From Candidatus Latescibacterota bacterium (lineage in GTDB: Bacteria > Latescibacterota > UBA2968 > UBA8231): a DNA stretch of 64,000 nucleotides. The DNA is taken from positions 3,936,001-4,000,000 of the forward strand of contig OZ244561.1 in NCBI GenBank assembly GCA_965217585.1, read 5' to 3'. The number at the start of each line of letters is the position of its first letter. The first letter of the stretch is position 1. The notes beneath the pieces are model-generated. The model searched no databases, was not told the origin of the DNA, and saw only the letters and a program-made list of their open reading frames with translations. Both the position numbers and the translations under genes were made by a program. Of the stretch, positions 43,314-57,689 are shown piece by piece.

Positions 43314-44285
43314 ATGAAGCAGATTGTGCGACAACTGGACATCCTGCGGACGCTTCAGGCACGGCGTTACGGAGCGAGCGTTCGCGAACTGGCAGACGAG
43401 TACAAAGTAGATAGGCGCACCATACAGCGCGATCTGGAAGACCTGCGCGAGGTAGGGTTTCTGATGGACGAACGGCGCACCGATCAGCGCATTTACTACC
43501 AACTACAAAAGGACACCAAGCTGCCACTGAACTTTCCGATCATGGAAGTCGCGGCGATGATCTTTGCCGAGCAAGCGGGCATGGGGCTGGTGGGGACGCC
43601 GTTCGGCGAGCACCTGCGGTCGGCGATTCGCCGGCTGACCCAAGCCATGCCCCCGGAGATGCGGCAATTCCTAGAGCGAGCCGCAGAGGCTTACGTGCCG
43701 CTGGCGCGCGGGCACAAGCCCTATGAAGACGCCCGAGAGATACTCGAAAACCTGCACGACGCCATACTGGAGCGCCGCGTGTGCTGGGTGAGCTATCGCT
43801 CGCCGGGGGCGGAGGCCCGGCAGTACAATATCGAACCGCTGCGCCTCCTGCCGCACCGAGGCGGTCTGTACGTGATTTCGCGGATGCCTTACTACGACCA
43901 GCTCATTACGCAGGCGGTGGATCGCTTTGAGGCGGTGGACGTGACCGAGGAGGAATTCGAGCCGCCGGATCACCTGTCGGTTGACGAACGATTGAGCAAT
44001 GCGTTCGGCATCTCATCCGAGGAGCCGATGGACGTGGTGGTTCGGTTCACCGAGGAGCAGGCACCCTATATACGGGAGCGGATCTGGCATCCGAGCCAGA
44101 CGCTGGAAGAAATGGACGACGGTCGGATAGTGCTGCGGCTGCGGGCCGGGGGGTTTTACGAGATCAAGAGTTGGGTGTTGAGCTTTGGAGCGGCGGCTGA
44201 GGTGCTGGAGCCGGATGAGTTGCGGGAGGCGGTGCGGGAAGAGATGCGGGCGGCGCTGGGATTGGATGACGAGGGTGCGACGTGA
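43314..44285 (+). CDS. wHTH-WYL-WCX transcriptional regulator (PafBC/DriD-like)
   Basis: VDRRTIQRDLEDL wHTH, IEPLRL...GLYV WYL region, IRERIWHPSQ and WVLSFGAAAEVLEP..LR WCX. Confidence 0.92.
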   Translation: MKQIVRQLDILRTLQARRYGASVRELADEYKVDRRTIQRDLEDLREVGFLMDERRTDQRIYYQLQKDTKLPLNFPIMEVAAMIFAEQAGMGLVGTPFGEHLRSAIRRLTQAMPPEMRQFLERAAEAYVPLARGHKPYEDAREILENLHDAILERRVCWVSYRSPGAEARQYNIEPLRLLPHRGGLYVISRMPYYDQLITQAVDRFEAVDVTEEEFEPPDHLSVDERLSNAFGISSEEPMDVVVRFTEEQAPYIRERIWHPSQTLEEMDDGRIVLRLRAGGFYEIKSWVLSFGAAAEVLEPDELREAVREEMRAALGLDDEGAT

Positions 44286-44309
44286 TCTGTCGCAGGAGTT
44301 CAGTAATAT
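44276..44309 (+). promoter_or_regulatory. Putative WYL-activator binding site and -10 element
   Basis: TGCGAC-N7-GTCGCA palindrome. TGTCGC-N10-TAATAT spacing. GAGGAG RBS and ATG at 44350 follow. Confidence 0.7.
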
Positions 44310-44349
44310 CTTCCAAGGAAGCCGTAAATTTTACACAGAGGAGATGAAG

Positions 44350-44458
44350 ATGAGGCACTTTAAGCTTGTGGCGTTAGCAGGAAATCCTAACTGGGCACTC
44401 AATGAATTTAAGGCTGGGAGGGCTCGTTATGGCTGGAGTTGGTTTCCCGGTGCAGATC
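44350..44458 (+). pseudogene. 5' fragment of first WYL-regulated gene, truncated by IS5
   Basis: MRHFKLVALAGNPNWALNEFKAGRARYGWSWFPGAD with good RBS, ending exactly at the IS end. Confidence 0.6.
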
Positions 44459-45636
44459 GGCTTTGTTGCATGAAACCAGGTCGGCTGTGTTGGCCTCTTG
44501 GTTTTTTGGTTTACGCTTTTTTTGTGATCGGATAGGACTCGGGTTTGGCCAACGCGAGCAGTCGGTTAAGTACCGCACAACCCAACCGTGTTTCGGTCTG
44601 TTGGTGGGGTAAGGTTCGGGCGCGTAAGGTATCGCCGAGTATCTGTTTATAGCGGCCTATCTGCGTTTCGGCGATCGAGCGGCGATGATAGCCGCTGTCG
44701 TTTTTCCAGGTTCGACGGCCCCGTTGGCGGATCGCTCGAATCGTCTCATCGCGGGGTAACGGCTCGGCGTGAGTGTTGCCATGTTGCTCGATTTTGGCGT
44801 CCTTGCGCGGCGGAATGATCGGGCGAATAGGCCGGCCTTGATCGGGCGCGGCCAACGCGTCGAAGACCTTGCGCTTATCATAGGCTCCATCGCCACCCAA
44901 CGCGACCACGGACGCTTCGACTTGCTGCAGCAACGGCTCCACCTGCGAGGCATCATCTCGGCGGTTGGTGGTCAAGGTCTGTGCGACGATTTCGCCGGTA
45001 GCCTCGTTGACCCCTAGGTGCAATTTGCGCCATGCGCGCCGCTTCGTCCAACCGTGCTGACGCACCTTCCACTCGCCTTCCCCATACACTTTCAGCCCCG
45101 TCGAGTCAACCACCAAGTGCAGGGGTTGGTCGGTACGCTGGGGCGGTAGATCCACCGCCAAATCCGCCTGACGGCGAGACCAGGTCGTGTGATCGGGCCC
45201 CTGTAGATCCAGTCCCATCAAGGCCAAGATGGAGCCGACAAAGCCCTCGGTTTGGCGCAGCGGCAAATGATAGAGCATCCGTAGCGTCAACGCCGTTTGG
45301 ATGGCTCCATCCGAAAAGGTGTATTGCGCTCCCCGCTGGGAGGGCCCTTGATAATACCAAGCTTGAACCGCTTGGGGGCTAAACCACACCGTCAGACTCC
45401 CCCGCTGTTTAAGGCCGGCCTCGTAGGCAGACCCATTACGCACCCGGTATACGACCTTCGGGCGACCGCGAGCAAACTTGACCGGGGAGGAAGAAGACGA
45501 TACCTTGGGCATGACAGGTTCCTTGGACGAGAAAGCATGGATTTTTTGCCAAAAAGGTCCTGCCCAAACTACTAAGGAACCTGTCTTTATTCAACCAATG
45601 AACACAAGAAAAACCGACGATTCATGCACCAAAGCC
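44459..45636 (-). mobile_element. IS5 family (IS903 subgroup) element, no flanking DR
   Basis: GGCTTTGTTGCATGAA and TTCATGCACCAAAGCC IRs (15/16). Flanks do not match each other. Confidence 0.9.
44511..45512 (-). CDS. IS5/IS903-type transposase
   Basis: RGSLTVW, LPLRQTEGF, VDSTGLKVYGEGEWK, WRKLHL, DGAYD and SGYHRRSIAET motifs. Confidence 0.93.
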   Translation of the reverse strand: MPKVSSSSSPVKFARGRPKVVYRVRNGSAYEAGLKQRGSLTVWFSPQAVQAWYYQGPSQRGAQYTFSDGAIQTALTLRMLYHLPLRQTEGFVGSILALMGLDLQGPDHTTWSRRQADLAVDLPPQRTDQPLHLVVDSTGLKVYGEGEWKVRQHGWTKRRAWRKLHLGVNEATGEIVAQTLTTNRRDDASQVEPLLQQVEASVVALGGDGAYDKRKVFDALAAPDQGRPIRPIIPPRKDAKIEQHGNTHAEPLPRDETIRAIRQRGRRTWKNDSGYHRRSIAETQIGRYKQILGDTLRARTLPHQQTETRLGCAVLNRLLALAKPESYPITKKA

Positions 45637-47663
45637 ACTTTCTGGCGCAACTGGAGGACTTTCAAAAGCAACTCTGGCTGAAGAAAAAGTTTGTACTCGA
45701 AACCAACTGGTGTGTTACTCTAAATCGCATCCCGAAGGCTTTGTATCCCGAGATCGCCACCAACGCGGCACAGTGCGAGGAATGGGTTGAGTTGTTCGCC
45801 GTTGACGAAATTCCGGGTGATCTGATAAACGGAGGTGCGACTTGGAGCAATCCGCCGAGTCTCGATTTCCTCAAGGCCAACCCCTACCTGGTGCTGGACA
45901 CGCGGCACTTTGACCGCGATTTCACCGACCGACTGCTGGCGGCACTCTCCGACTCTGGATCGCTTGATGAGCAGTTGGACGGTCTGCTGGTGCATGGCGA
46001 AAATTTTCAGGCGTTGAATCTGCTGCAAGCACGGTATCATGGGCAGGTGCAGTGTGTCTATATCGATCCTCCGTACAATACAGATGCGACACCGATACTG
46101 TACAAGAATGACTTAAAAAGTTCATCGTGGCTAGGTTTACTACATTCTCGATTGATACCAACCATGACTCTTCTAGAACGCAATGAACATGCCTTATGCG
46201 TTGCGATTGATGATACTGAGTTAGCAAATCTTTCAAAACTAGTCGAGATTGACTTCCCACACTATGAACTCCACCGTGTTATAGTAAATCACTATCCGGG
46301 ATCAGGAACGGGACGAAGCAACGTAACACGTACACACGAGTATGGTTTATTTTTAGTCCCTAAGGATGTTGACATCGTCAGAGGAAAAGCTAAATCGGAT
46401 GGAAAACGCGAAAGAAACTTTCGTAGGAGCGGGACCGGAGAAAATAATTATCGAACTGGTCGTCCAAATAGTTTTTACGCAGTTGTGGTCAATCCGAAGA
46501 CCTATAAGATCATTCGTGTCGAAGAACCACCAAGACTTGGCTCTAGCTATCCAAAAGAAACAACTGAAGAAGGATACATTCGTATTTATCCGATTGGAAA
46601 AGATGGATCTGAACGAGTATGGACTCTTAGCTACGAAAGAGCTAAGTTAGCTTTGAAGCAGGGGACACTTTTATGTACACAGAATCTTTCAATAAACAGA
46701 ATTTACGAAGACAAAAACTCCAGAAGTTTGTTAAAAAGTGTATGGCTAGATAAAAAGTATAATGCTGTAACAAACGGCACAAATCTCTTGAAAGATCTTT
46801 TTAGTGTCTCGAATTTATTTTCTTATCCAAAATCAATATTTACAGTTCAAACATCCATAGATGCGATCATATATGAAAATGATGAGGCTATTGTACTCGA
46901 CTACTTCGCTGGCTCCGGCACCACCGGCCACGCAGTTATCAACCTCAACCGCGAGGATGGTGGACAGCGCAAGTATATTTTAGTAGAAATGGGCCATCAC
47001 TTCGACACAGTTCTGTTGCCGCGAATAAAGAAAGTCATCTATTCACCAGATTGGAAGGATGGCAAGCCGGTTTCGCGCAATGGCGTCACGCAGTTGTTCA
47101 AGTACATCCGACTGGAATCGTATGAAGATACGATGGACAGTCTTGAAGTGACGCCACCTTCAGATGCACAGCAGGCTTTGCTGGCCGAGAATACCGCGCT
47201 GGCCGAGGATTATCGGCTGCGCTACGCACTCGGTGTGGAGACTGCTGGTAGTGCGTGTCTGCTGAGCAAGGCGTTCGCTGATCCCTTCACCTACACGCTC
47301 TCCGTCGTGCGCGATGGTGTGCGCCGAGAAGTTCAGGTTGATCTGCCCGAGACCTTCAACTACTTGATCGGTTTGTGCGTGGTATCCCGCCAGCGGATTG
47401 ACGGTGTGCTCGCTATCACAGGCATAGACCCCGAAGGGCGCAACTGTCTGATCCTCTGGCGCAATCTTGACGAAACGGACCACGCCTCGCTGGACACCTA
47501 TTTTGATCGTAATCGTGAACAATTCGGATCACTGGACATCATCTACGCCAACGGCGACCACACTCTGAACGCCATGCAGCAATACGGCGAGAATTGGACT
47601 GCAAAGACCATTGAGCCAATTTTTCGTGAATTGATGTTTGGGGGGGCCAACAATGAGCAATAA
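45624..47663 (+). CDS. mod: Type III R-M methyltransferase (Mod), 5'-truncated, ATG supplied by IS end
   Basis: YIDPPYN, YPKS and LDYFAGSGTTGHA motifs. Begins at the normally internal FLAQLEDFQKQLWLKKKFV segment. Confidence 0.85.
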   Translation: MHQSHFLAQLEDFQKQLWLKKKFVLETNWCVTLNRIPKALYPEIATNAAQCEEWVELFAVDEIPGDLINGGATWSNPPSLDFLKANPYLVLDTRHFDRDFTDRLLAALSDSGSLDEQLDGLLVHGENFQALNLLQARYHGQVQCVYIDPPYNTDATPILYKNDLKSSSWLGLLHSRLIPTMTLLERNEHALCVAIDDTELANLSKLVEIDFPHYELHRVIVNHYPGSGTGRSNVTRTHEYGLFLVPKDVDIVRGKAKSDGKRERNFRRSGTGENNYRTGRPNSFYAVVVNPKTYKIIRVEEPPRLGSSYPKETTEEGYIRIYPIGKDGSERVWTLSYERAKLALKQGTLLCTQNLSINRIYEDKNSRSLLKSVWLDKKYNAVTNGTNLLKDLFSVSNLFSYPKSIFTVQTSIDAIIYENDEAIVLDYFAGSGTTGHAVINLNREDGGQRKYILVEMGHHFDTVLLPRIKKVIYSPDWKDGKPVSRNGVTQLFKYIRLESYEDTMDSLEVTPPSDAQQALLAENTALAEDYRLRYALGVETAGSACLLSKAFADPFTYTLSVVRDGVRREVQVDLPETFNYLIGLCVVSRQRIDGVLAITGIDPEGRNCLILWRNLDETDHASLDTYFDRNREQFGSLDIIYANGDHTLNAMQQYGENWTAKTIEPIFRELMFGGANNEQ

Positions 47664-48546
47664 TCAATACCAATCCGAAGATCATCTTACATTCTCGCAG
47701 CGTTATGGTTACGCGCCCTTGCTGGATCCGATGCAATTGGAGGATCTTTCGGATGATCTAAGGCGAGAATTATGGAATGTAACTCGGAAATTACTTCTAT
47801 CGCTAAGAGGGATCAACTCATTATTGACTCCAAAATTTGAAGAAGGTACTCTGTTTATTGAACGTGTACTGGGCAAGTATTTGAAGAAGCCAGAAGATGA
47901 AATCAGTACTTCTTATGAATTTGCGAAGGATAATTTTAAAAACTTGATTCTGCAAGGCAGTTTCAATGAGGTTCTTGATTTTGTTGAAATTATGGTAAAC
48001 GAAAGAAGGTATGATAAGGAATTTATCAAACGTATCAGTGAATCATTTGAAAGATGTGCCGCTGCGTACTGGTTAGACAAATCTAACTATCCGTATCAAA
48101 TTTTCCCGCGCAGTAATAAGGCGCAGGGCGAGGCAACACAAGAAGCCATCAAAACGGTCCGCGATGGCGGTATGAAAGGTGCAGAGGCGCACTTGTGCCA
48201 AGCGGCAGAATATATTAACGCACAGCGATTTGCTGAGTCAATTAAAGATAGCATCCACACGGTTGAATCTGTTGCTCGCCAAATTGATCCAAAATCAAAA
48301 ACCCTTGGTCCTGCGCTAAACTCTCTCGAGAAAGCCGGTTTGATAAAGCATCCAGCACTCAAAGAAGCGTTCTCAAAGCTGTATGGCTATACCAGTGACG
48401 AACAAGGGATTCGGCACGCGTTACTCGATAAGAACTCTCCAGATGTTGACCTAGACGAAGCCATGTTCATGTTTGGAGCCTGCGCGTCCTTTGCCGCCTA
48501 TTTGGTAAGCAAACACCATAAGATGCAAGAAGAGGATGACAAATGA
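47653..48546 (+). CDS. AbiJ-NTD4-like domain protein with putative Abi/HEPN-like C-terminus
   Basis: FSQRYGY...Q.EDLS.DLR..LWN N-terminus and KLYGYTSDEQGIRHA C-terminus. Confidence 0.7.
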   Translation: MSNNQYQSEDHLTFSQRYGYAPLLDPMQLEDLSDDLRRELWNVTRKLLLSLRGINSLLTPKFEEGTLFIERVLGKYLKKPEDEISTSYEFAKDNFKNLILQGSFNEVLDFVEIMVNERRYDKEFIKRISESFERCAAAYWLDKSNYPYQIFPRSNKAQGEATQEAIKTVRDGGMKGAEAHLCQAAEYINAQRFAESIKDSIHTVESVARQIDPKSKTLGPALNSLEKAGLIKHPALKEAFSKLYGYTSDEQGIRHALLDKNSPDVDLDEAMFMFGACASFAAYLVSKHHKMQEEDDK

Positions 48547-51500
48547 CACGCCTACAGAGCCGCCTTGCCCTCCATCGCTTCGTTTGTCTGGAATTCGGCT
48601 ACGATGACATGGACGCGATGCTCGAACGGTTGCACTATGCCCAGGGCGAACTCATCTCAGAAGGCACGAGCGACTATGCCCAATCGCTACAGCCCTATCC
48701 TACACGAGCCCTCGTTACCCCCGACCAGTTTGCCGAATACGACGCCAACATCGCGGCGCACAGCCGCCAGCTTCGTATGACAGAGGAACACGGCCGGACC
48801 TGGAAACCCCATCAATACCTCGCCCTGTTATTCACCGAACACTATTTACAGCGCTATTTCGACGATCCCGAGACCCTATGCGCCGACCTGAATCATGAGA
48901 AGGCCAGCCATCAACCAACTGCGAGCATGCCGGACTACACGGTAGAAGACCTGCACACCCTCGCTTTCCAGAGCGCGACGGGTTCTGGCAAAACGCTCCT
49001 CATGCACGCCCATATTCTGCAATACCGGCATTATTTGGACCGTGCGGGAAAGCGGCTAAACAATATTGTGCTGGTGACGCCGAATGAGCAGATGTCCATG
49101 CAACACGAGCGCGAGATGCAGGAAAGCGGTCTGCGGGCACGGCTATTTTCCAGCGAAGCCGGTTCTGACTTGTTCACATCCGTCGAGATCATCGACCTGA
49201 ACAAACTGGCCGAAAAAAAGGGCGTAAAGCGCGTTGCGGTAACGGATTTCGGCGACGACAATCTGGTGCTGGTTGACGAAGGACACCTAGGCGCATCGGG
49301 CAATGTTTGGCGCGAACGCCGCCGAGAATTGGCGAGCGGAGGCTTTGCGTTTGAATACTCCGCGACCTTCAATCAAGTAGCGGGCAAAGACAACGACCTG
49401 CTAAACGCCTACGGCAAATGCCTGCTATTCGACTACACATACCGCCGATTCCATGCAGATGGCTACGGCGAGGATTACGCCATCCTGAACCTGCCGGGCG
49501 GGGTGCAGGACGAAAACAGCGACATGTACCTGCTGGGTTGCCTGCTGACCTTCTACCAGCAATACCGCATCTATCGAGACAAGGGCGCTTTGTGGAAAGC
49601 ATTCAATCCGGCAAAACCGCTGTGGGTATTCCTCGGCAAGACCGTGACGGGATCGAGCAAAGCAGACCAGGCGACCCGATCCGATGTCATCCGCATCCTG
49701 AATTTTCTCGGTTGGGTGCTGGCCCACGGCGAAGACGTGCGGGCCATGATCCAACGCCTATTAGCCGGGAAATCGGGATTGCTCAACAGTACCGGCAACG
49801 ATTGCTTTGCTGGCCGCTTTTCCCATTTGCCGAGCGGGGAAGACCTCTACGCCGATCTCTGCGAGACTCTGTTTCACGGAGCGGGACGGCTGCACATCGT
49901 CTATCTGACCGCAGGCGAGGGCGAATTGCACCTTCGCACCGCGGACAATGATCCTTTTGGCGTGGTCAATGTCGGGGACTCGACGAAGCTCTACAATCTG
50001 CTCACGGAAAGCCCTAACCCCGATTTCGCTGTTGATCGAGAGATGGGCTTTGTCGCCCGGCTGTTCGCCGATGTGGACCGCCCAGATTCAACCGTGAACA
50101 TTGTCATCGGCGCACGGCGTTTTATTGCAGGCTGGAACTCATGGCGGGTGAGCACGATGGGACTGATGCATGTCGGCGTGAACGAAGGTCCTGAAATCAT
50201 CCAGATGTTCGGACGCGGCGTGCGTCTGAGGGGCTATAATATGAGCCTGAAGCGGCACCGCGAAAGCGAAGTGGAACTGCCGGAGGACAGTGATGAACTG
50301 GCGGAATTGGAGAAGCTATACATTTTTGGGCTGCGAGCCAACTATATGCAGACTTTCCGGGATCTTCTGGAAAAAGAAGGAATGCGCGCCGAACAGGAGA
50401 CTTTCAGCTTTCCCATCACATGGAACTTTGCCAAGAAGACAGACCTGAAGCTGATCCGACTCAAGGATGACCGAAAATACAACCTCTCCGCTAAGCGTCC
50501 CGTCCTGCCGGGGCCGACTGATAGTAACCGCATAGTGACGCTGGATCTATATTCACGACTTCAATCCGTCGCATCCGATGGATCTGCGTTCAGTGAGGGA
50601 ACAGAACAAGATTCGGTCAGCCTCGCGTCACACGCCACCTTCTTCAACACAGCCCGTATTTACGAGCGGCTGTTATCGCGCAAGCAACAAAAAAGCTGGC
50701 ACAATCTGGTTATTGAACCGTGGACTGTGGAACAGCTATTGCAAAGCGATAACTGGTACGAACTCTATATGCCGCCAGATCGGTTGAACGCCACCGGATT
50801 CAAGCAGATGCGCGGATTGGAGAACATCGCCCTTGATCTGCTCACCGAATACGCCGATAACTTCTGGCGCAGGCAGCGCAGACGCTGGGAACACGACGAG
50901 ATTGAGGTCGTCGCGCTGGAAGAGGATGATCCAAACAATGCCGTAAGCTACGAGCTATCCGTGGATGTAACCAAAGGTCAGTTGGTCAAGGACGCGGGGG
51001 AACTGGCGTACAATATCCGCGAGGGCCAGTGCGACGAGTTAAAAGAATGGTATGAGCACTTGAAAATCGGCGTCATTTGGTCACAAGCTCATGCGTATCA
51101 GCCACTGCTACATACCCGGAAGGATCGCATCGTTACAGTTCAACCTGTACCCTTGGACGAAAACGAGAAGCGCGTTGTCGAGCAGCTGGAAGAGCTGACC
51201 CGGAAAGGTGATCCCTGCTTACAAGGCAAAGAGTTGTTTCTGATTCGCAATCTGACCCGCGGTCGGGGTGTGTCCTTTTTCGACGACTTCGGTTATTACC
51301 CGGATTTCATCGTCTGGTTGAAGGACGACGTACATCAGCACGTTCTCTTTCTCGATCCGAAGGGCTTGAGCCGGTTCGGCCAAAGAGAACGCAAAAAGGT
51401 GCAACTACACCACGAAATCGCGGAAATTGAGGAGCGAGTGCGCGAGAACGACGCGGACTTGTACCTGCATGCCTATATTTTGTCCGTCACGCCGGCTTCG

Positions 51501-51842
51501 GAGATTGATGATGGCAGTCGTTCTGTGAATGAGTGGAAAACGGATGGTGTTTATTTTTTAAATGAGGCTGATTGCATCCAACAGGTCATCCAACATGCGT
51601 TAGGACTCTCTGATGGGGAAACCACGATGCAACTAGATCCCGAGACCGAGCGACGGCTCGACCTGCTGGTGTCCGAGACCGGGCGCAGCAAGGCTTTTTA
51701 CCGGCGTGAGCTCACTAAACGCAGCCTTGAGGACATCGAGGACTACTACCTCGCCATGGCCGTGCTAGAACGCGTCCGCCAAGGAGAGGAAAAGGTCCAT
51801 TCCTCCTCCGAGGTGAGAAAAGCACTTGGCTTGGACGATTGA
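48543..51842 (+). CDS. res: Type III restriction endonuclease (Res) with C-terminal in-frame RHH antitoxin domain
   Basis: ATGSGKT, DEGH, SATF, QMFGRGVR and YYPDFIVW...LDPKG nuclease motifs. The last ~71 aa (from 51627) resemble RelB/CopG-type antitoxins. Confidence 0.88.
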   Translation: MTRLQSRLALHRFVCLEFGYDDMDAMLERLHYAQGELISEGTSDYAQSLQPYPTRALVTPDQFAEYDANIAAHSRQLRMTEEHGRTWKPHQYLALLFTEHYLQRYFDDPETLCADLNHEKASHQPTASMPDYTVEDLHTLAFQSATGSGKTLLMHAHILQYRHYLDRAGKRLNNIVLVTPNEQMSMQHEREMQESGLRARLFSSEAGSDLFTSVEIIDLNKLAEKKGVKRVAVTDFGDDNLVLVDEGHLGASGNVWRERRRELASGGFAFEYSATFNQVAGKDNDLLNAYGKCLLFDYTYRRFHADGYGEDYAILNLPGGVQDENSDMYLLGCLLTFYQQYRIYRDKGALWKAFNPAKPLWVFLGKTVTGSSKADQATRSDVIRILNFLGWVLAHGEDVRAMIQRLLAGKSGLLNSTGNDCFAGRFSHLPSGEDLYADLCETLFHGAGRLHIVYLTAGEGELHLRTADNDPFGVVNVGDSTKLYNLLTESPNPDFAVDREMGFVARLFADVDRPDSTVNIVIGARRFIAGWNSWRVSTMGLMHVGVNEGPEIIQMFGRGVRLRGYNMSLKRHRESEVELPEDSDELAELEKLYIFGLRANYMQTFRDLLEKEGMRAEQETFSFPITWNFAKKTDLKLIRLKDDRKYNLSAKRPVLPGPTDSNRIVTLDLYSRLQSVASDGSAFSEGTEQDSVSLASHATFFNTARIYERLLSRKQQKSWHNLVIEPWTVEQLLQSDNWYELYMPPDRLNATGFKQMRGLENIALDLLTEYADNFWRRQRRRWEHDEIEVVALEEDDPNNAVSYELSVDVTKGQLVKDAGELAYNIREGQCDELKEWYEHLKIGVIWSQAHAYQPLLHTRKDRIVTVQPVPLDENEKRVVEQLEELTRKGDPCLQGKELFLIRNLTRGRGVSFFDDFGYYPDFIVWLKDDVHQHVLFLDPKGLSRFGQRERKKVQLHHEIAEIEERVRENDADLYLHAYILSVTPASEIDDGSRSVNEWKTDGVYFLNEADCIQQVIQHALGLSDGETTMQLDPETERRLDLLVSETGRSKAFYRRELTKRSLEDIEDYYLAMAVLERVRQGEEKVHSSSEVRKALGLDD

Positions 51843-52083
51843 GTACACCGACACGGCCGAAAAACAGCTTGGCAAGCTCGATAGGCAGACAGCCCGACGC
51901 ATCGTCGATTATATGAATGAACGTGTTGCAGTGCTTGATGACCCACGGCACTTGGGCGAGGCACTGACCGGCCCATTGAGTGGGCTATGGCGTTATCGGG
52001 TGGGAGGTTATCGCGTGATTTGCGACATTCAGGATCGTGTCTTAGTGACGAGGGTCGGCAGTCGCGGTCAAGCGTACCGATAA
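51826..52083 (+). CDS. relE: RelE/ParE family toxin
   Basis: AWTIEYT.TA.KQL.KLD...DPR..G.AL.G...LWRYRVG.YR. Confidence 0.85.
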   Translation: MAWTIEYTDTAEKQLGKLDRQTARRIVDYMNERVAVLDDPRHLGEALTGPLSGLWRYRVGGYRVICDIQDRVLVTRVGSRGQAYR

Positions 52084-52228
52084 TTTGACCCCTCGCTATA
52101 GATCTCAATACTGGATTTCGAGTTTCGTCGCCAGAATCCGCCTCATATTCGGCGCTACGAGCTTGAGGGTCGCCGACTTGGAAACAAGCGCGATTACCGG
52201 CTGACCAAACTCTCACCGCATCTATTCA

Positions 52229-53029
52229 TTAATTATTTATTCCCGAAGTTCGAACGGACGCGCGAACTTGGCCCCCGTGTTCCGCCAGCCAAGAGCGGAA
52301 AAATTGCAACACGGCTGCGCCGTCTCCCTGCTGTCGTTGTTTCCGCTGAATGAGCCATAGCTCGATCTCGACGCCCCGCAGATCCGGGTTTAGCCCTCGG
52401 GCTTGGGGACTACCGTGGAAACGCTTGAAATTTGGCTGACTCTTGTAGAACGAAATCGCGTCGCTGTTTTGTAGGAGATCCGAAACGATGATGAGACGCC
52501 GCGGAACATCGCGCCGCTTGGTACTCTGAAAATGCTTTATGGCAACCGACTGCACCGATTCCATGATCGGCGACGATTTCGCCTCTTTATTGGTGAGCAG
52601 CTTTCTAAGCTCCTCTTCTAAAGGTGCGCGAAATTTCTGCTGCCAGTTACGCCGAATGATCGCTTCGGATTGAGTAAGGTGATCGACGTTTTCCGGGTCG
52701 CCGGGACTACAGACTCTGATAATCGGGTCGAGGCTCCCACCATGCGTAGGGTCCACCGCAAAAAGACTGATCTCGTGATTTTCCTCGATCTCATCGAGCA
52801 GGTTCCAGATCCTAGTCTCCAGATCGGACTTGGTAGTGGGCATGAACGAATCCGTGCGATCGAGCAGGATTGCCGTAATCGCCGAGGGACCCTCCGACCG
52901 GCAAAGGGTCTGCGGATCGCGCTCGACCGACGGCGGCTTTAGCACCACAAAAACGAGCAAGATAACGACGACCCCCACGATCATCGCACCGCCTGCTATC
53001 GTTTTATTCGATAGCTTACCTTTACTCAT
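52229..53029 (-). CDS. Membrane-anchored protein with vWA-like fold
   Basis: N-terminal TM anchor, ILLDRTDS (MIDAS-like), SPIMES and LIIVSDLLQNS motifs. Confidence 0.6.
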   Translation of the reverse strand: MSKGKLSNKTIAGGAMIVGVVVILLVFVVLKPPSVERDPQTLCRSEGPSAITAILLDRTDSFMPTTKSDLETRIWNLLDEIEENHEISLFAVDPTHGGSLDPIIRVCSPGDPENVDHLTQSEAIIRRNWQQKFRAPLEEELRKLLTNKEAKSSPIMESVQSVAIKHFQSTKRRDVPRRLIIVSDLLQNSDAISFYKSQPNFKRFHGSPQARGLNPDLRGVEIELWLIQRKQRQQGDGAAVLQFFRSWLAEHGGQVRASVRTSGINN

Positions 53030-54438
53030 TAACTCTCTTCCTGATCGCCCCTCGGGCTATCTGGCTGCCTTCGATGCGGGGCCAAAGGTCTCAATTCCTC
53101 GCTGCCCATATCGTACTGATAGTGCAGCTCCTTTACGCCGTTATCAATTTTTGTCTCCGCCGCGCTGGTGATCTTCAAGATTTCCTCGCGCGTCAGCATA
53201 GCCTTCGGCAAGGTGGTGTCTATTGGCGTTTTCACTATTCGCCAAGTCTTCTTGAATCGCTCTGGCGCTTCTCCGTCTCGCATCGCCCGGTTGGTATCCC
53301 GGTAGAGCTTGAGCAAGTGATTTCCCGCGTGCTCTAAGTGGTCTAGATGGTCGTCGAACGTTTTGATGAGGCGTCGATGGTCGTCGATGATAGAATCGTG
53401 TTGTCGTCCAGCGAGCAAAATGTTTTGCTTGATGTCCTCCAACGCTTGCACCGCCTCATCCGACGTTTTCTTTAATCCCTTTAGGCAGACCTGATAGAGC
53501 GCGTTGTATACTTCGTCGGCCTCCGCGAATACGCGGGCACACTCCGCGTAACCCGGATAGCGATCATCCCACAGGATTCCATCGATAAAGCTAATAATCG
53601 CAAAGAGGAATCCCATGAAGAACAGGATCCACGATTGGAAGTCCCCTAGACCCAATGGATTGTCGCCGAAAGCGGCGATGGCGAGTTTCCCCCCTTCGTC
53701 GAGCACCGTACCCGTTGTTTCCCGATAGTGCGCCACCATCAAGTTGAAAAACAACGCAAAGGCCATAAACACCACGGCACCGGTGATGCCCACGGACTTT
53801 CTGCTCCAGTGGATGTGGTTGAAATTGGTGACGAGGATGCCGAGCAAAAAGGCAATACCGAGATTGACAAACGAGATGACAACTGCCTCTGTGTACGCGC
53901 CGAACAGCCCAAACTCGTTGCCCTTTGCCAAAAAGGAGGCGTTGCCAAAGGTCTCAATGAGAAAGAGCACGGCGATGATGCCTATGTTAAATATCTTATC
54001 GTCCCAGCTACGGGGCTGTGGCTCGCGGCTAAGGCTATTTTGTTCCTTAAACTGCTGCAAGTCTTCTTTTTTTCGGCGCAGATCCTGTTGCTCTCTGCTC
54101 AACTCTACTATGGCCTTATCGACATTCTGATCGAACTCCGCTCGTTGCTTGGCCGTTTCAATCTCAATGGAACTTAGTTGCTCCCGGAAATCTAGCTCGA
54201 CGAGGCGCGCTCTGTATGCTTTTAGCTCGCTCTCGCATATATTCTGTGCCTGTGCTTGAGCGCTCTCAATTAGCCCGATAACCTTGCGTTCTGTGGGGTC
54301 GAGGTCGTCTTCCGCACTATCTAATGCGGGTCGCCCCCGCCTCGCGTTCCGTTGGCTATCTTCTACTATATGCAGATTTTCCGCGACCTTATTGGTGTCG
54401 ATCTTCTCAAACGGGTTGGTGTGAAGATCGTCTGTCAT
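53029..54438 (-). CDS. Coiled-coil protein with central 4-TM segment
   Basis: Long heptad-rich N- and C-terminal arms around four hydrophobic helices. AGGAGG RBS. TAATG coupling to downstream gene. Confidence 0.75.
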   Translation of the reverse strand: MTDDLHTNPFEKIDTNKVAENLHIVEDSQRNARRGRPALDSAEDDLDPTERKVIGLIESAQAQAQNICESELKAYRARLVELDFREQLSSIEIETAKQRAEFDQNVDKAIVELSREQQDLRRKKEDLQQFKEQNSLSREPQPRSWDDKIFNIGIIAVLFLIETFGNASFLAKGNEFGLFGAYTEAVVISFVNLGIAFLLGILVTNFNHIHWSRKSVGITGAVVFMAFALFFNLMVAHYRETTGTVLDEGGKLAIAAFGDNPLGLGDFQSWILFFMGFLFAIISFIDGILWDDRYPGYAECARVFAEADEVYNALYQVCLKGLKKTSDEAVQALEDIKQNILLAGRQHDSIIDDHRRLIKTFDDHLDHLEHAGNHLLKLYRDTNRAMRDGEAPERFKKTWRIVKTPIDTTLPKAMLTREEILKITSAAETKIDNGVKELHYQYDMGSEELRPLAPHRRQPDSPRGDQEES

Positions 54439-54563
54439 CGCGCACTCCTCCTCATTTACGGCGTCTTTGGGGCTGAAATTAAAAAACGGCAGGGGATTGA
54501 GGGGATTATATCAAAGATATGCATAACTGTGATTTTCGCCCCCTTATTCTTTGTTTTTATGCC

Positions 54564-55697
54564 TCAAATTACCACCCTAAACCCCTCTCGATCTTCCATT
54601 CCTTGCGCGAAGATGCGCGGATCGATGTCGAGGCCCGCGCCGGGCGTGTCGGGCACGTGGAGGATGGAGTCGGCGAGCTGCCAGCCATCGGTGATTAGCC
54701 CAGGCATGGCAGCCGGTGCGGCTTCGAGCAGGCAGAAGTTCGGGATGGAAGCGGCGAAATGGGCGTGGTGAAAGCGCTCGACGTAAGACCCCCAGCAATG
54801 GGGAGCGCAGAGCGCATTCCACTGCTCTAGACGCGCCGCAGTGCTCCGCCACCACGTCAGGCCCATGGCGCGAAAATCGTGCTGCACCACGTCGATAAAT
54901 CCCTGTTCTACCAAGTCAAAAAAGTACGGCGGCGGCGAAAATTCCCCGTCGGCAACAAGCGTGTCCCAGTCATTTTCGACGATGTGCTCCTTAAGCGCTT
55001 GGTTGAGCGGGGCGTCCTCGGCAAAAGGCTCCTCAAACCAATAGATGCCCACGTCCGCGCAGGCGTCCAACAGAGCTATGGCCGTGTTGAGCGTATTGCC
55101 CATGTTGGCGTCGATGAGCACCTTGGCCTGCGGGCCAGCGGCTTCGCGCACCGTGCGGATGACTAACTCGTCGCGCTTGAGACCCACGTCCGTGGGCATC
55201 CAGCGCGCGCCGCGGCCGACCTTGATCTTGAAGTGCAAATAGCCGTGCTCGTGGCCGGTGGCGACTTCGCCGCGGAAGATGTCTTTGACCTGTTCCTCAT
55301 CGGTGGCTTCCAAATCGTCGATATAGACCGAGCCGTCGTACACTTCGACCTCGCGTTTGCCGCGGGCACCGAGCAGGCGGTACAGCGGCAAATCCATCAT
55401 CCGCGCCACCAAATCCCACAGCGGCAGGTCGAGGTTGCGGCCCGCGGGCAGGCAGCCGTCGGGGAGTTGGAAGAGATCGCCGATCTCCTTGCCGAGCAGC
55501 GCGCGCGCTTCGGCCTCGCCAATGCGAGACCACCCCAAGCCCCACGCCCCGCCGTCCGTGCGCACCCTGACGACCGGGTCCGTGATCTGCGTGCCGTGGG
55601 CGGGAATGCGGGCATTGAAGCCGATGTAGCGCGGCCGGGTACCGCGCAGAACGCATTTTTCAATACAAGTAATCTTCCCTTTGGGGACTTCGTGCAT
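54564..55697 (-). CDS. Mandelate racemase/enolase-superfamily enzyme
   Basis: DLPLWDL, YDGS.Y.DDL, FKIKVGRG, IDAN, WFEEP and ADGE motifs. Confidence 0.85.
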   Translation of the reverse strand: MHEVPKGKITCIEKCVLRGTRPRYIGFNARIPAHGTQITDPVVRVRTDGGAWGLGWSRIGEAEARALLGKEIGDLFQLPDGCLPAGRNLDLPLWDLVARMMDLPLYRLLGARGKREVEVYDGSVYIDDLEATDEEQVKDIFRGEVATGHEHGYLHFKIKVGRGARWMPTDVGLKRDELVIRTVREAAGPQAKVLIDANMGNTLNTAIALLDACADVGIYWFEEPFAEDAPLNQALKEHIVENDWDTLVADGEFSPPPYFFDLVEQGFIDVVQHDFRAMGLTWWRSTAARLEQWNALCAPHCWGSYVERFHHAHFAASIPNFCLLEAAPAAMPGLITDGWQLADSILHVPDTPGAGLDIDPRIFAQGMEDREGFRVVI

Positions 55698-55711
55698 GGC
55701 CAAGCTCCTTA

Positions 55712-56812
55712 TCAGGGCGAGGGCAAGATGCCATCGCCGTTCCACAAACGGGTCTGCGGCCAGTAAGCCGACCATCCAAACCACATCGAATTATAGGCTG
55801 GGATTTGCTCTAACTGCGCGCCCTTGAGCGGCCCGGAAAGAGCCTCGCCGAGCATGTTCCACTCGCTGCCGGTCTCCACGTCGGCAAAGGCCAAAGGCAG
55901 GTCGCCGGCGCGGCTGAGTATGCGAAAGGTCAAAAGCTGATCGCCGACAACCCGGCTGTAGGGAATGGCGGTGGAAGTCTCTCTGTCGTAGAGCACGAGC
56001 ACGGCGCGGTCGCCAACGCGATCGTTGATGACGGCCTTATTGGGCATCCTGCTGAAAGGATAGGCCCTGCTCTCGCCAGCGGCTCGCAACCCCAAGATCA
56101 TTTCCTTGGCCGACAAGCGGTCGCTGGGCCGAGCGGTAGTAAGCGGAAAAATAATCATCCGTTGGTTGCTGCGATAGTTGCCATAAGGGTAGTGGCCGTA
56201 CACATCTAGTGGATATAGTGCGCGGATATAGTCCGGGTAGCGGTCTAGACCGGTCGCCGCTTGGGCGACCGTGGTATGCGGATACAGCGTGCGCCACAGG
56301 CCCCAAGTCGTCTCGACCACGGGCAAGAGCTGGAGGCGCCGCCCTCTGTACTCGCCACTAATACCAACGTAGATCATCTGCGGGTACAGGGTTTTCTCGT
56401 CGCGGCGGTCGTACAGCACCAAGTTGCTGTTGAGCACCATGCCGGAGACGCCGAATTCGATTTGTGCTGAGTCTGGGGCCGTCGCGTCAAAAACTAGCCC
56501 GGTGCTGGTCAGCGGGCAGAACGTAACGCAGATGTACTGGCCGCCGAGCTGGTCGTTGATGACTTCGTGCTTCCAGCCGAGGCGATGCGGATAGGCCCGC
56601 GCGGTGCCGTTTGCGACCACGCCGAGGACTAGGTCTGTATCCGCCAGATAATGCGCGTCTGCCGGTGCAACGCTCTGGGGGTTAGTCATGGCCGGGATGC
56701 CGTCGCGGGGCACTCCGCCCGAGCGCAGGTGGTGGGGCAGCTCGCCGAGGAGGTTGTAGATGTCGGCGTGGAGAGGAACGGCAATGAAGAGGGCAAGCAG
56801 GATGCGGGCCAT
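55712..56812 (-). CDS. DUF3179 domain secreted protein
   Basis: SGGVPRDGIPA, HEVIND, TFCPL, FGVSG.V.NSNLVLYDR and MWFGW.AY.P motifs. Confidence 0.88.
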   Translation of the reverse strand: MARILLALFIAVPLHADIYNLLGELPHHLRSGGVPRDGIPAMTNPQSVAPADAHYLADTDLVLGVVANGTARAYPHRLGWKHEVINDQLGGQYICVTFCPLTSTGLVFDATAPDSAQIEFGVSGMVLNSNLVLYDRRDEKTLYPQMIYVGISGEYRGRRLQLLPVVETTWGLWRTLYPHTTVAQAATGLDRYPDYIRALYPLDVYGHYPYGNYRSNQRMIIFPLTTARPSDRLSAKEMILGLRAAGESRAYPFSRMPNKAVINDRVGDRAVLVLYDRETSTAIPYSRVVGDQLLTFRILSRAGDLPLAFADVETGSEWNMLGEALSGPLKGAQLEQIPAYNSMWFGWSAYWPQTRLWNGDGILPSP

Positions 56813-56957
56813 GGCGTCGGACACTGGGAAAGCGATGCGGAGGCTCAATTATACAAGGGAACCATTGGATGTCAAACGGCTCCCCGGATCGCTAGCTTGC
56901 GGATGGCTGTGGACCGCAAGAAGTTACGTTATCCCCTAGCAGGAAGGAGCCTGCGAC

Positions 56958-57335
56958 GTGAACGCCCGCCAGACGGTCGAGGCCTACTTCGCCGCGTTGA
57001 CAACAGGCGATGCCCACCGGCTCATCGACCTCATCTCCCCAGCCGATCACTTTGTCAAGATCGGCACTGAACCGGGGGAATACATCGAGGGCGGTGGGCG
57101 CGCTGCCCAGTACTACTACCACCACGTCGCCAGTACCCGGGATTTCACCATTGATACAGAGCATCTCGACGTGCAAGAGCGCGATTCGGTGGCTTGGTTT
57201 TACACCCGACAGCAGTGGCGGCTCAAATGGCAAGGCCAGTACGAGGAACTAGCCCTGCGTTTGACGGGCGTATTGGAGCGAGAAGCGGGCGAATGGAAGT
57301 TCGCGCAGATCCACGCTTCCATAGGGGTGGCCTAG
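56958..57335 (+). CDS. SnoaL/NTF2-like protein
   Basis: IGT..GE...G, VAWF and RLTGVLERE.GEWK..QIH.S motifs. AAGGAG RBS. Confidence 0.85.
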   Translation: MNARQTVEAYFAALTTGDAHRLIDLISPADHFVKIGTEPGEYIEGGGRAAQYYYHHVASTRDFTIDTEHLDVQERDSVAWFYTRQQWRLKWQGQYEELALRLTGVLEREAGEWKFAQIHASIGVA

Positions 57336-57446
57336 CGCGAGGAACTTGTGCCGCGTCTATGTGGTGGAAAAACGCTCCATTACTTGTTAGGCTCTTTTTG
57401 CGCGGCCTCTATTGGATTATTGGCTTGGCTCAACCGGATACATCTC

Positions 57447-57689
57447 ATGCGCAACGCCATCCTCGCGAGTGCCCTACTGCTCGCCACGCCCCTCGCTGGC
57501 GACCAACTTCGCATCGCCACCTCGAACGACTGGCGCCAATGGCAACTGCCCGGCGACGCCCTCATCTACAACAAAAACGGCAAGCAAGTCACCCAGAAGC
57601 AATACAATAAGCTGATCCCCAGATGGACAAGCTCCTCTTTTTTGTTCCTCCCAACCGCCCTCCGCTTCTCAGGCTTGGTGAGGGGATGA
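57447..57689 (+). pseudogene. Internally deleted remnant of a paralog of the ORF at 3..1415
   Basis: Signal peptide + DWRQWQLPGDA joined to YNKNGKQVTQKQYNKLIP, matching FDKNGKEVSARKYDKLIP of the first ORF. Confidence 0.6.

What the first reader, a model, noticed from the sequence alone, without database searches (positions are those of the whole stretch)
48543..52083. Type III restriction subunit fused in frame to an antitoxin, directly upstream of relE: candidate self-guarded restriction enzyme
Seen: Res (helicase + PD-(D/E)xK) has no stop after ...CIQQVIQHALG. It reads through LSDGETT into a complete RHH antitoxin (MQLDPETERRLDLLVSETGRSKAFY...LEDIEDYYLA...SSSEVRKALGLDD, 51627-51842), which overlaps a relE start. 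Established: accessory toxins can guard R-M enzymes (PrrC with EcoprrI), and TA modules can act as phage sensors. Inference: degradation or binding of Res by a phage anti-restriction factor, or host shut-off, could free RelE and cause abortive infection. I know no described Res-antitoxin fusion. Caveats: an internal ATG with weak GGGGA RBS could yield free antitoxin, and RelE looks slightly eroded (RVGGYR, short DIQDRVLV loop), so a chance deletion fusion in a decaying island is possible.
Basis: partly seen in the sequence, partly recalled or inferred. Interest (0 to 1): 0.8.

Follow-up and report, generated by a model that had tools for sequence, protein, structure and literature searches.

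The report
Restriction subunit read through into antitoxin
A Type III restriction enzyme gene really does run without a stop into a complete RelB antitoxin next to relE, but comparison with relatives suggests an inherited accidental junction in a gene-swapping hotspot, not a purpose-built self-guarding enzyme.

Summary
ORF 48543-51842 (1099 aa) is a Type III Res that continues through 7 codons into a full-length RelB-like antitoxin (ATG 51627). This overlaps a RelE/ParE-fold toxin gene (51826-52083). Independent assemblies and run contigs carry the same in-frame junction.

The fusion is confined to one Latescibacterota genus. It was absent from 79 of 80 related genome loci and from the 150 best of 2748 family representatives.

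In that genus the locus is a slot where R-M cassettes are exchanged and lost, and relB sits on its right border. Relatives show res with its 5' end missing, an internal mod'-'res deletion, relBE alone, and relB alone. All keep 10-20 nt of the res 3' end. relB remains under purifying selection without Res, so its own SD and ATG work. The genome uses SD sequences, and the leader has GGGG at -12 to -9.

Keeping the 7-codon linker open is uninformative: only 1 of 63 substitutions makes a stop. Res stayed under purifying selection after the fusion (omega 0.16).

Best reading (about 0.6): res lost its last codons, stop and terminator against the relB leader, and the tail is tolerated. A functional Res-tethered antitoxin is not excluded (about 0.2). 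No such fusion was found in three literature searches.

The parts
44309..45530 (-). IS5-type insertion sequence (DDE transposase ORF 44511-45512) lying about 94 nt upstream of the shortened mod
   Evidence: Pfam DDE_Tnp_1_5 (E 3.6e-39) and DDE_Tnp_1 (E 3.8e-23). Inverted repeat of 17 nt at 44309-44325 and 45514-45530, 82% complementary.
45624..47663 (+). Type III mod, 679 aa. It has the catalytic methylase domain but lacks about 385 N-terminal residues present in the family.
   Evidence: PADLOC MTase_III (E 1.6e-135), matching profile positions 369-1053 of 1057. Pfam N6_N4_Mtase. Full-length Mods of L001, L002, L006 and L013 align to the window only from their residues 386-424 onward. 114 of the 120 best homologues are 1000 aa or longer, and the nearest non-self full-length homologue is 74% identical. 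No SD-like run lies before the ATG.
47638..48546 (+). Accessory gene between mod and res (AbiJ_NTD4 / PDC-S32 family). Its stop overlaps the res start (ATGA).
   Evidence: Pfam AbiJ_NTD4 (E 1e-17). PADLOC PDC-S32 (E 1.5e-60). A homologue lies within 6 kb upstream of res in 30 of 80 related loci. Overlap seen.
48543..51605 (+). res proper: SF2 helicase plus nuclease, down to the family's C-terminal ...V-I-x-H-A-L-G. Its usual last 0-14 codons, stop and hairpin terminator are missing.
   Evidence: The window is 86-88% identical over residues 1-1020/1021 to non-fused L001-L003. DNA homology to L001, L002, L003 and L009 ends right after the HALG codons, where those loci go on to 5 more codons, a stop and a GC hairpin with a T-run. 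dN/dS 0.13-0.16.
51606..51626 (+). 21-nt linker (LSDGETT), which is the relB leader. GGGG lies at -12 to -9 before the relB ATG (SD-like).
   Evidence: The same leader precedes relB in Res-less relatives, with GGAG (L101) or GAGG (L102-L104) at the same place. The genome's 16S rRNA ends ...CACCUCCUUUCU, and GGAG/GAGG peak at -12 to -10 before long ORFs. Only 1 of 63 single substitutions creates a stop.
51627..51842 (+). relB: a complete RelB-like RHH antitoxin (71 codons), in frame with res and with its own ATG
   Evidence: NCBIfam NF048017, 88.2 bits, profile 1-70 of 70. 92-99% identical in 6 genomes of the genus, pairwise dN/dS 0.05-0.51.
51826..52083 (+). relE: RelE/ParE-fold toxin with a TTG start that overlaps the relB end by 17 nt
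   Evidence: Pfam ParE_toxin, TIGR02385, PDB 2khe_A E 1e-24. 87-89% identical in L004, L101 and L105, dN/dS 0.13-0.61. Deleted in L102-L104.
48543..51842 (+). The whole read-through ORF res::relB (1099 aa)

Best explanation
This is an inherited, accidental read-through junction between two ordinary modules.

A horizontally mobile Type III R-M cassette (mod, an AbiJ-like accessory gene, res) sits in a chromosomal slot where R-M cassettes are exchanged. The right border of that slot is a relBE toxin-antitoxin pair. At the junction res lost its last few codons, its stop and its terminator. It now runs through the 21-nt relB leader, by chance in frame, into relB.

The predicted products are inferred, not shown:
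- Res with a 78-residue C-terminal extension (linker plus RelB), made from the res start.
- Free RelB, made from its own SD-like site and ATG at 51627.
- RelE, made by translational coupling to the relB end.

On this reading RelBE behaves as a normal type II TA pair. It outlives, and perhaps stabilises, its neighbours. Res behaves as a normal Type III restriction subunit that tolerates the tail. relBE has no detectable promoter of its own and is probably transcribed with res.
For: Single origin and narrow spread:
- Of the 120 best of 436 Res relatives, 4 cover the tail fully and 1 partly. The other 115 stop at 76% or less of the queried region, which is the Res end.
- 79 of 80 genome loci lack the fusion, and RelB/RelE tblastn hit only L004.
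- None of the 150 best of 2748 family representatives matches beyond query residue 1030.
- Among proteins longer than 125 aa, RelB-like domains occur only in this clade or in spurious N-terminal extensions: 11 hits.

Junction anatomy:
- res homology to non-fused relatives ends right after HALG. Those relatives continue with 5 codons, a stop and a hairpin terminator.

The internal start works:
- G142 has relBE, and G123, G125 and G144 have relB only. All four have the same leader, only 10-20 nt of res 3' remnant, and no in-frame start upstream.
- G142 equals G129 minus 641 nt, so its Res-less state is secondary.
- relB dN/dS among the three relE-less, Res-less genomes is 0.17-0.22, at dS 0.085-0.33.
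- The genome uses SD sequences, and the leader has a G-run at the preferred distance.

Hotspot and decay:
- All 7 syntenic genomes share 52228-57563 downstream, but upstream each differs.
- G136: IS1595 and other DNA replace mod and the first 157 res codons.
- G129: mod' joined to 'res.
- G123, G125 and G144: a Type II R-M occupies the slot.
- G129's res remnant is a different allele. Identity to the window is 0.53-0.80 up to about 51570, then 0.87-0.98. This fits cassette exchange with a crossover in the res 3' end.

The open linker carries no signal:
- Only 1 of 63 substitutions creates a stop.

Other:
- No + strand promoter or terminator consensus lies between res and relB.
Against: - The fused form is old and was not purged. 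Res diverged under purifying selection after the fusion (window against L004: dS 0.27, omega 0.16, 863 codons).
- At least one fused lineage (P0002) lies on a contig with a full-length 1054-aa Mod (P0348), so the fusion coexists with what looks like an intact R-M.
- All 11 sequences that retain res codons keep the frame open (window, P0001-P0005, P0271-P0273, L004, L105). This includes an in-frame one-codon deletion in P0002 and an in-frame mod'-'res deletion in G129 and P0273.
- In the three fused genomes read as DNA (window, L004, L105) the SD-like site is GGGG. The Res-less genomes have canonical GGAG or GAGG, so internal initiation may be weaker where Res is present. The sample is too small to judge.
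- The last four linker codons (GETT) line up without gaps with the first four codons (MATS/MAST) of free-standing relatives. Only the fused protein would then carry the full-length N-terminal strand. Identity is 7-9 of 15 nt, which is weak.
- Neither free RelB nor the fusion protein has been observed. Only contigs, not raw RNA reads, were available.
Confidence: 0.6

Rival explanations
1. The fusion matters functionally: the antitoxin is tethered to Res. Some or most RelB is made as Res::RelB, so RelE neutralisation depends on translation and integrity of the restriction subunit. Possible consequences are loss or shut-off of the R-M operon freeing RelE (addiction to the R-M cassette, or abortive infection after host shut-off), or a phage factor that destabilises Res freeing RelE.
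For: - The fusion persisted with Res under purifying selection (omega 0.16 at dS 0.27).
- It is carried with a full-length Mod in the P0002 lineage.
- It was kept across at least two res alleles.
- relBE has no detectable promoter of its own, and the res terminator is gone.
- Contigs from RNA libraries of two studies bridge res, relB and relE (X16 record 9 and X19 record 12). This is a weak hint, because DNA carry-over is possible.
- The SD-like site in the fused genomes read as DNA is non-canonical GGGG.
- The linker may complete the ancestral RHH N-terminus.
Against: - No test of binding, stability or phage response was possible.
- relB works without Res in four genomes of the genus.
- The junction would be retained mechanically in any cassette exchange that crosses over inside res.
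- The open frame carries no selective signal.
- No second, independent Res-antitoxin fusion exists among 2748 family representatives or in the RelB 'longer' search.
- In the window itself Mod is shortened.
Confidence: 0.2
2. This is a dead remnant. The whole island in this genome is decaying, Res and/or RelE are inactive, and the fusion has no consequence at all.
For: - The window's Mod lacks about 385 N-terminal residues, has no SD, and lies next to an IS.
- Five of the six other syntenic genomes have lost all of res but 10-20 nt or a C-terminal remnant, and the sixth lacks its first 157 codons.
- relE was lost in three of them.
- The clade's RelE has a 3-residue deletion.
Against: - res, relB and relE are full-length and free of stops or frameshifts.
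- All three show dN/dS well below 1.
- The 3-residue gap lies in a hairpin turn.
- Helicase motifs (GSGKT, DEGH) and a PD...DPK nuclease motif are visible in the translation (read by eye).
Confidence: 0.14
3. Assembly or sequencing artefact: a missing stop or a frameshift at the junction.
For: None found.
Against: The same in-frame junction appears in two further genome assemblies, in eight protein clusters (P0001-P0005, P0271-P0273), and in contigs of four runs from four studies with no indel at 51500-51700.
Confidence: 0.01

Closest known systems
Type III restriction-modification systems (EcoP15I / EcoP1I type; named from memory)
   Same: A Mod methyltransferase (N6_N4_Mtase) is followed by a Res of about 1020 aa with an SF2 helicase and a C-terminal PD-(D/E)xK-like nuclease. 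PADLOC gives MTase_III E 1.6e-135 and REase_III E 1e-149.
   Different: Res carries a 78-residue C-terminal extension that is a whole antitoxin. An AbiJ-like gene sits between mod and res. Mod in this genome is N-terminally shortened.
relBE-type type II toxin-antitoxin modules
   Same: An RHH RelB-like antitoxin gene comes first and a RelE/ParE-fold toxin gene overlaps its end. Both are under purifying selection. RelB is an RHH repressor that counteracts RelE (abstract of PMC2812701 seen in the listing).
   Different: There is no stop, promoter or operator upstream of relB. The antitoxin frame is continuous with a 1028-codon enzyme gene. The N-terminus is 4 residues shorter than in free-standing relatives if the internal ATG is used.
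PrrC-EcoprrI (anticodon nuclease kept silent by a Type Ic R-M enzyme; recalled, not checked here)
   Same: A toxin gene is embedded in an R-M locus.
   Different: In that system the R-M enzyme itself masks the toxin and a phage peptide triggers it. Here a standard antitoxin domain is appended to Res, and no trigger or interaction has been shown.
[quoted passage not shown]
   Same: An antitoxin domain is covalently joined to another protein. That paper reports 195 genes with a BECR-fold toxin fused to an antitoxin domain.
   Different: In those cases the partner is the toxin itself. Here the partner is a restriction subunit and the toxin stays separate. The paper's Table S2 could not be seen because supplements are closed.

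Membership tests
Type III restriction enzyme, Res subunit | SF2 helicase (ResIII) domain | tested here: met
   Pfam PF04851, 27.7 bits (cut-off 22.5), residues 136-276. PADLOC REase_III E 1e-149. GSGKT and DEGH are visible in the translation.
Type III restriction enzyme, Res subunit | C-terminal PD-(D/E)xK nuclease motif | tested here: inconclusive
   YYPDFIVW...FLDPKG was read by eye in the translation. YYPDFIVW was conserved enough to serve as a search pattern. No profile or structure test of the nuclease fold was run.
Type III restriction enzyme, Res subunit | Adjacent Type III Mod gene in the same operon | tested here: met
   MTase_III E 1.6e-135 at 45624-47663, but it is shortened by about 385 N-terminal residues.
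RelB-like RHH antitoxin (NCBIfam NF048017) | Full-length match above the curated cut-off | tested here: met
   88.2 bits against a cut-off of 50, profile 1-70 of 70. Pfam gives only a sub-threshold TraY RHH hit. No solved structure with a significant sequence match (best E 0.56, unrelated protein).
RelE/ParE toxin | Family profile match above cut-off and full length | tested here: met
   PF05016 58.1 bits (cut-off 23). TIGR02385 30.6 bits (cut-off 27.9). 2khe_A E 1e-24 over residues 1-85.
RelE/ParE toxin | Catalytic residues intact and toxic activity present | not tested
   The only evidence is purifying selection (dN/dS 0.13-0.61) and a 3-residue gap in a turn.
Type II TA operon | Antitoxin gene upstream of and overlapping the toxin gene | tested here: met
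   17-nt overlap; relE TTG at 51826 and relB stop at 51840-51842.
Type II TA operon | Own autoregulated promoter and operator upstream of the antitoxin | tested here: inconclusive
   No + strand sigma-70-like hit in 45400-52054. The sequence upstream of the 21-40 nt leader is unrelated among relatives. Promoter types of this phylum are not covered by the scan.
R-M-guarding toxin systems (PrrC-like) | Toxin held inactive by the R-M enzyme and released by a phage anti-restriction factor | not testable with these tools
   No binding or infection data. Complex prediction was not run, because a RelB-RelE pass would rest on likeness to solved pairs.

The most novel reading that the evidence does not exclude
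The Res::RelB protein is the physiologically relevant antitoxin form wherever the R-M cassette is present. Because relBE has lost its own promoter and the antitoxin is translated as the tail of Res, RelE is kept silent only while the R-M operon is expressed and Res is intact. This would make the module an R-M-coupled addiction or abortive-infection device, that is, a restriction enzyme physically carrying the antidote to a neighbouring mRNA interferase. It would also explain why the junction survived an exchange of res alleles.
Probability: 0.15. Interest if true: 0.75.

Novelty: new variant of a known kind. Interest (0 to 1): 0.38.

Why it matters
If the tail is only baggage, the locus is still useful. 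It is a clean natural series showing how a TA pair at the border of an R-M exchange slot outlives successive cassettes, and how gene fusions arise and persist without selection for the fusion. It also cautions against reading conserved open junctions as designed architectures.

If the tethered antitoxin is functional, it would be the first case of a restriction subunit covalently carrying an antitoxin. That would link restriction, post-segregational killing and abortive infection in a single polypeptide.

Tried and rejected
- Sequencing or assembly error was rejected.
- Independent recurrence of the fusion elsewhere in the Res family was looked for and not found. L066 and L058 seemed to match beyond residue 1028, but their alignments run across a stop codon and they gave no RelB hit.
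- Conservation of the open linker was rejected as evidence of selection (1 of 63 substitutions gives a stop).
- The idea that Res-less relBE is the ancestral empty site into which R-M inserted was rejected. L101-L104 keep res-derived codons (IQHALG or part of it), and L101 is L105 minus 641 nt.
- An internal promoter for relB was not found by consensus scan, which is inconclusive for this phylum.
- RNA evidence consisted only of assembled contigs from RNA libraries, so no transcript ends or expression levels could be read.
- Complex prediction, structure prediction and fold search were not run. A RelB-RelE pass would rest on likeness to solved pairs, and a model of the tail would not separate the hypotheses.
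- Supplementary tables of PMC11980606 (Table S2, multidomain TA proteins) could not be seen and might list related architectures.

Full report
**1. What is in the sequence**

The + strand carries a tightly packed operon.
- mod, 45624-47663.
- An AbiJ_NTD4 / PDC-S32 gene, 47638-48546.
- res, starting at 48543. Its start overlaps the preceding stop as ATGA.
- res runs without any stop to 51842. The last 71 codons, from the ATG at 51627, are a complete RelB-like antitoxin (NCBIfam NF048017, 88.2 bits against a cut-off of 50, profile 1-70 of 70).
- A TTG-initiated RelE/ParE-fold gene (51826-52083) overlaps the end by 17 nt. It matches Pfam ParE_toxin at 58.1 bits, TIGR02385 at 30.6 bits, and PDB 2khe_A at E 1e-24 over its full length.

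res and mod are Type III by PADLOC (REase_III E 1e-149, MTase_III E 1.6e-135).

**2. The junction is real and inherited**

A search with residues 800-1099 found 436 relatives, of which the best 120 are listed.
- P0001 (99% identical), P0002 (91%), P0003 (89%) and P0004 (89%) cover the tail completely.
- P0005 covers it partly.
- The other 115 cover 76% or less of the queried region, so they end where Res normally ends.

Their linkers differ: LSDGETT, PSDGETT, FSDEGTK, LSDEGTK. P0002 has an in-frame one-codon deletion after the M.

Contigs of two DNA runs from two studies bridge the junction without indels. Contigs from RNA libraries of two further studies bridge res, relB and relE. The RNA contigs are only a weak hint of co-transcription, because DNA can be present in such libraries.

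**3. The fusion is confined to one clade**

- Of 80 related loci from species-representative genomes, only L004 reads into RelB.
- 76 others end within 14 residues of the conserved ...HAL, and one (L070) ends after 24.
- For two (L058, L066) the alignment ran across a stop.
- RelB and RelE tblastn hit only L004.
- An exhaustive HMMER scan gave 2748 family members. None of the best 150 representatives matched beyond query residue 1030.
- A search for long proteins carrying this RelB domain gave 11 hits: the same clade, its remnants, or spurious upstream extensions.

Within the phylum (168 genomes), the full junction occurs in the window's genome, in G136 (= L004) and in G129. All three belong to one genus. 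The record titles name these as Latescibacterota MAGs.

**4. Anatomy of the junction**

DNA homology between the window's res and the closest non-fused genes (L001, L002, L003, L009) runs to the HALG codons and then stops. Those genes continue with five codons, a stop and a GC-rich hairpin followed by a T-run.

In the window the next 21 nt (CTCTCTGATGGGGAAACCACG) lead into the relB ATG. So res lost its last codons, its stop and its terminator.

No sigma-70-like promoter or terminator consensus lies on the + strand between res and relB. This scan may not suit the phylum.

**5. What the relatives show**

Seven genomes of the genus share the downstream flank (window 52228-57563), but each differs upstream of relB.
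- **G136:** DNA carrying an IS1595 transposase gene and a Type I S-subunit fragment replaces mod, the accessory gene and the first 157 codons of res, including Walker A.
- **G129:** the first ~60 codons of a mod are joined in frame to res codon ~866 onward plus relB, giving a 303-codon open frame (282 aa from the first ATG). P0273 is a second example.
- **G142:** this genome equals G129 minus 641 nt. It keeps about 10 nt of the res end, the leader, relB and relE.
- **G123, G125, G144:** a Type II R-M (two methyltransferases and a PLD-family nuclease) fills the slot. About 20 nt of res-derived sequence (codons IQHALG/E) remain before the leader and relB, and relE is deleted.

The Res-less states are therefore secondary, and the site is an R-M exchange and decay hotspot with relB on its right edge.

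G129's res remnant is a different allele. Identity to the window is 0.53-0.80 up to about 51570 and 0.87-0.98 beyond it, and dS is about 2.8. The same junction has therefore survived a cassette exchange. That is expected if the right-hand crossover falls in the res 3' end.

**6. Selection**

- relB: pairwise dN/dS 0.05-0.51. Among the three genomes with neither Res nor relE it is 0.17-0.22, at dS 0.085-0.33.
- relE: 0.13-0.61.
- res, window against L004, both descended from the fused ancestor: dS 0.27, dN 0.043, omega 0.16 over 863 codons.

All three genes have thus been maintained, and Res tolerated the tail for a long time.

Retention of the open linker says nothing. Only 1 of 63 possible single substitutions in its seven codons gives a stop.

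**7. The internal start**

The genome's 16S rRNA ends ...GGATCACCTCCTTTCT. GGAG and GAGG are about ten-fold enriched at -12 to -10 before 3464 long ATG-started ORFs.

The relB leader has a purine run starting at -12 in every genome:
- GGGG in the window, L004 and L105;
- GGAG in L101;
- GAGG in L102-L104.

In L101-L104 there is no in-frame start upstream, so the ATG equivalent to 51627 must be used. I infer that free RelB is also made in the window.

It is worth noting that the canonical four-base words occur in the Res-less genomes. The sample is too small to build on.

**8. A nuance at the N-terminus**

Free-standing relBE relatives (L096-L098, 61-66% identical RelB) start MATSI or MASTI, with a GGAGG-type SD upstream.

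The window's linker end plus start (G-E-T-T-M) can be lined up without gaps against M-A-T-S-I. Identity is 7-9 of 15 nt, which is weak. If this alignment is right, the internal-start RelB is four residues shorter at the DNA-binding strand than its relatives, and only the fusion protein carries the full length. This keeps a functional role for the fusion open.

**9. State of the R-M in this genome**

The window's Mod (679 aa) aligns only to the C-terminal two thirds of family members, from their residues 386-424 onward. Of the 120 best homologues, 114 are 1000 aa or longer, and the nearest non-self full-length homologue is 74% identical.

The mod ATG has no SD. An IS5-type element lies about 94 nt upstream. 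The missing region has no Pfam family, so loss of function is likely but not shown.

The fused P0002 lies on the same 207,432-nt contig as a 1054-aa Mod (P0348). The fusion therefore also exists next to a full-length Mod.

**10. Verdict**

| Reading | Confidence |
|---|---|
| Accidental, inherited read-through junction between a mobile Type III R-M cassette and a resident relBE pair; the TA pair works on its own and the tail is tolerated | 0.6 |
| Functional Res-tethered antitoxin (addiction to the R-M operon, or a guard) | 0.2 |
| Dead remnant | 0.14 |
| Artefact | 0.01 |

The functional reading is not excluded, but it has no positive evidence.

I found no description of a Res-antitoxin fusion in three full-text searches or in the passages read from two TA surveys (PMC11980606; PMC2701414). 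Their supplements could not be seen. The architecture is a new variant of known kinds and is of moderate interest.

Noticed in passing
window 45624-47663: The Type III Mod lacks about 385 N-terminal residues that 114 of the 120 best homologues have. It has no SD before its ATG and lies about 94 nt from an IS5-type element (44309-45530). The R-M of this genome may be crippled.
   Followed up: partly
window 47638-48546: An AbiJ_NTD4 / PDC-S32 gene is wedged between mod and res with overlapping stops and starts. A homologue lies within 6 kb upstream of res in 30 of 80 related loci, usually between mod and res. It therefore looks like a recurrent third component of this Type III family.
   Followed up: partly
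P0150 and P0195 (Res family representatives, 36-39% identical): Two of the 150 best Res representatives carry a ~200-residue C-terminal extension ending in a Peptidase_S24 (LexA/UmuD-like) domain. This is another kind of regulatory-looking tail on Type III Res.
   Followed up: no
window 52229-53029 (-) and 53029-54438 (-): Two convergent genes (266 and 469 aa, the latter apparently with membrane segments) have no Pfam or PADLOC family. They are syntenic next to relB(E) in all 7 genomes of the genus that I examined.
   Followed up: no
L102, L103, L104 (G123, G125, G144): An orphan relB, with relE deleted and no Res, is still under purifying selection (dN/dS 0.17-0.22). This suggests a role of its own, for example as a regulator or as an antitoxin for a paralogous toxin. 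The slot there holds a Type II R-M with two methyltransferases and a PLD-family nuclease.
   Followed up: partly
L001-L003, L009 compared with the window: Res is 85-88% identical between two different families of the phylum, while the window's Mod has no non-self full-length homologue above 74%. This fits horizontal spread of the cassette together with exchange of Mod (specificity) alleles.
   Followed up: no
L105 13143-13991 (G129) and P0273: An in-frame deletion joins the first ~50-60 codons of mod to the last ~160 codons of res plus relB, giving one 282-aa ORF (303-codon open frame). relB could thus be translated from the mod start as well.
   Followed up: partly
window 43314-44285: An HTH-WYL-WCX regulator gene lies at the left of the low-GC island (GC falls from about 0.66 to 0.40-0.55 between about 41250 and 54500).
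   Followed up: no
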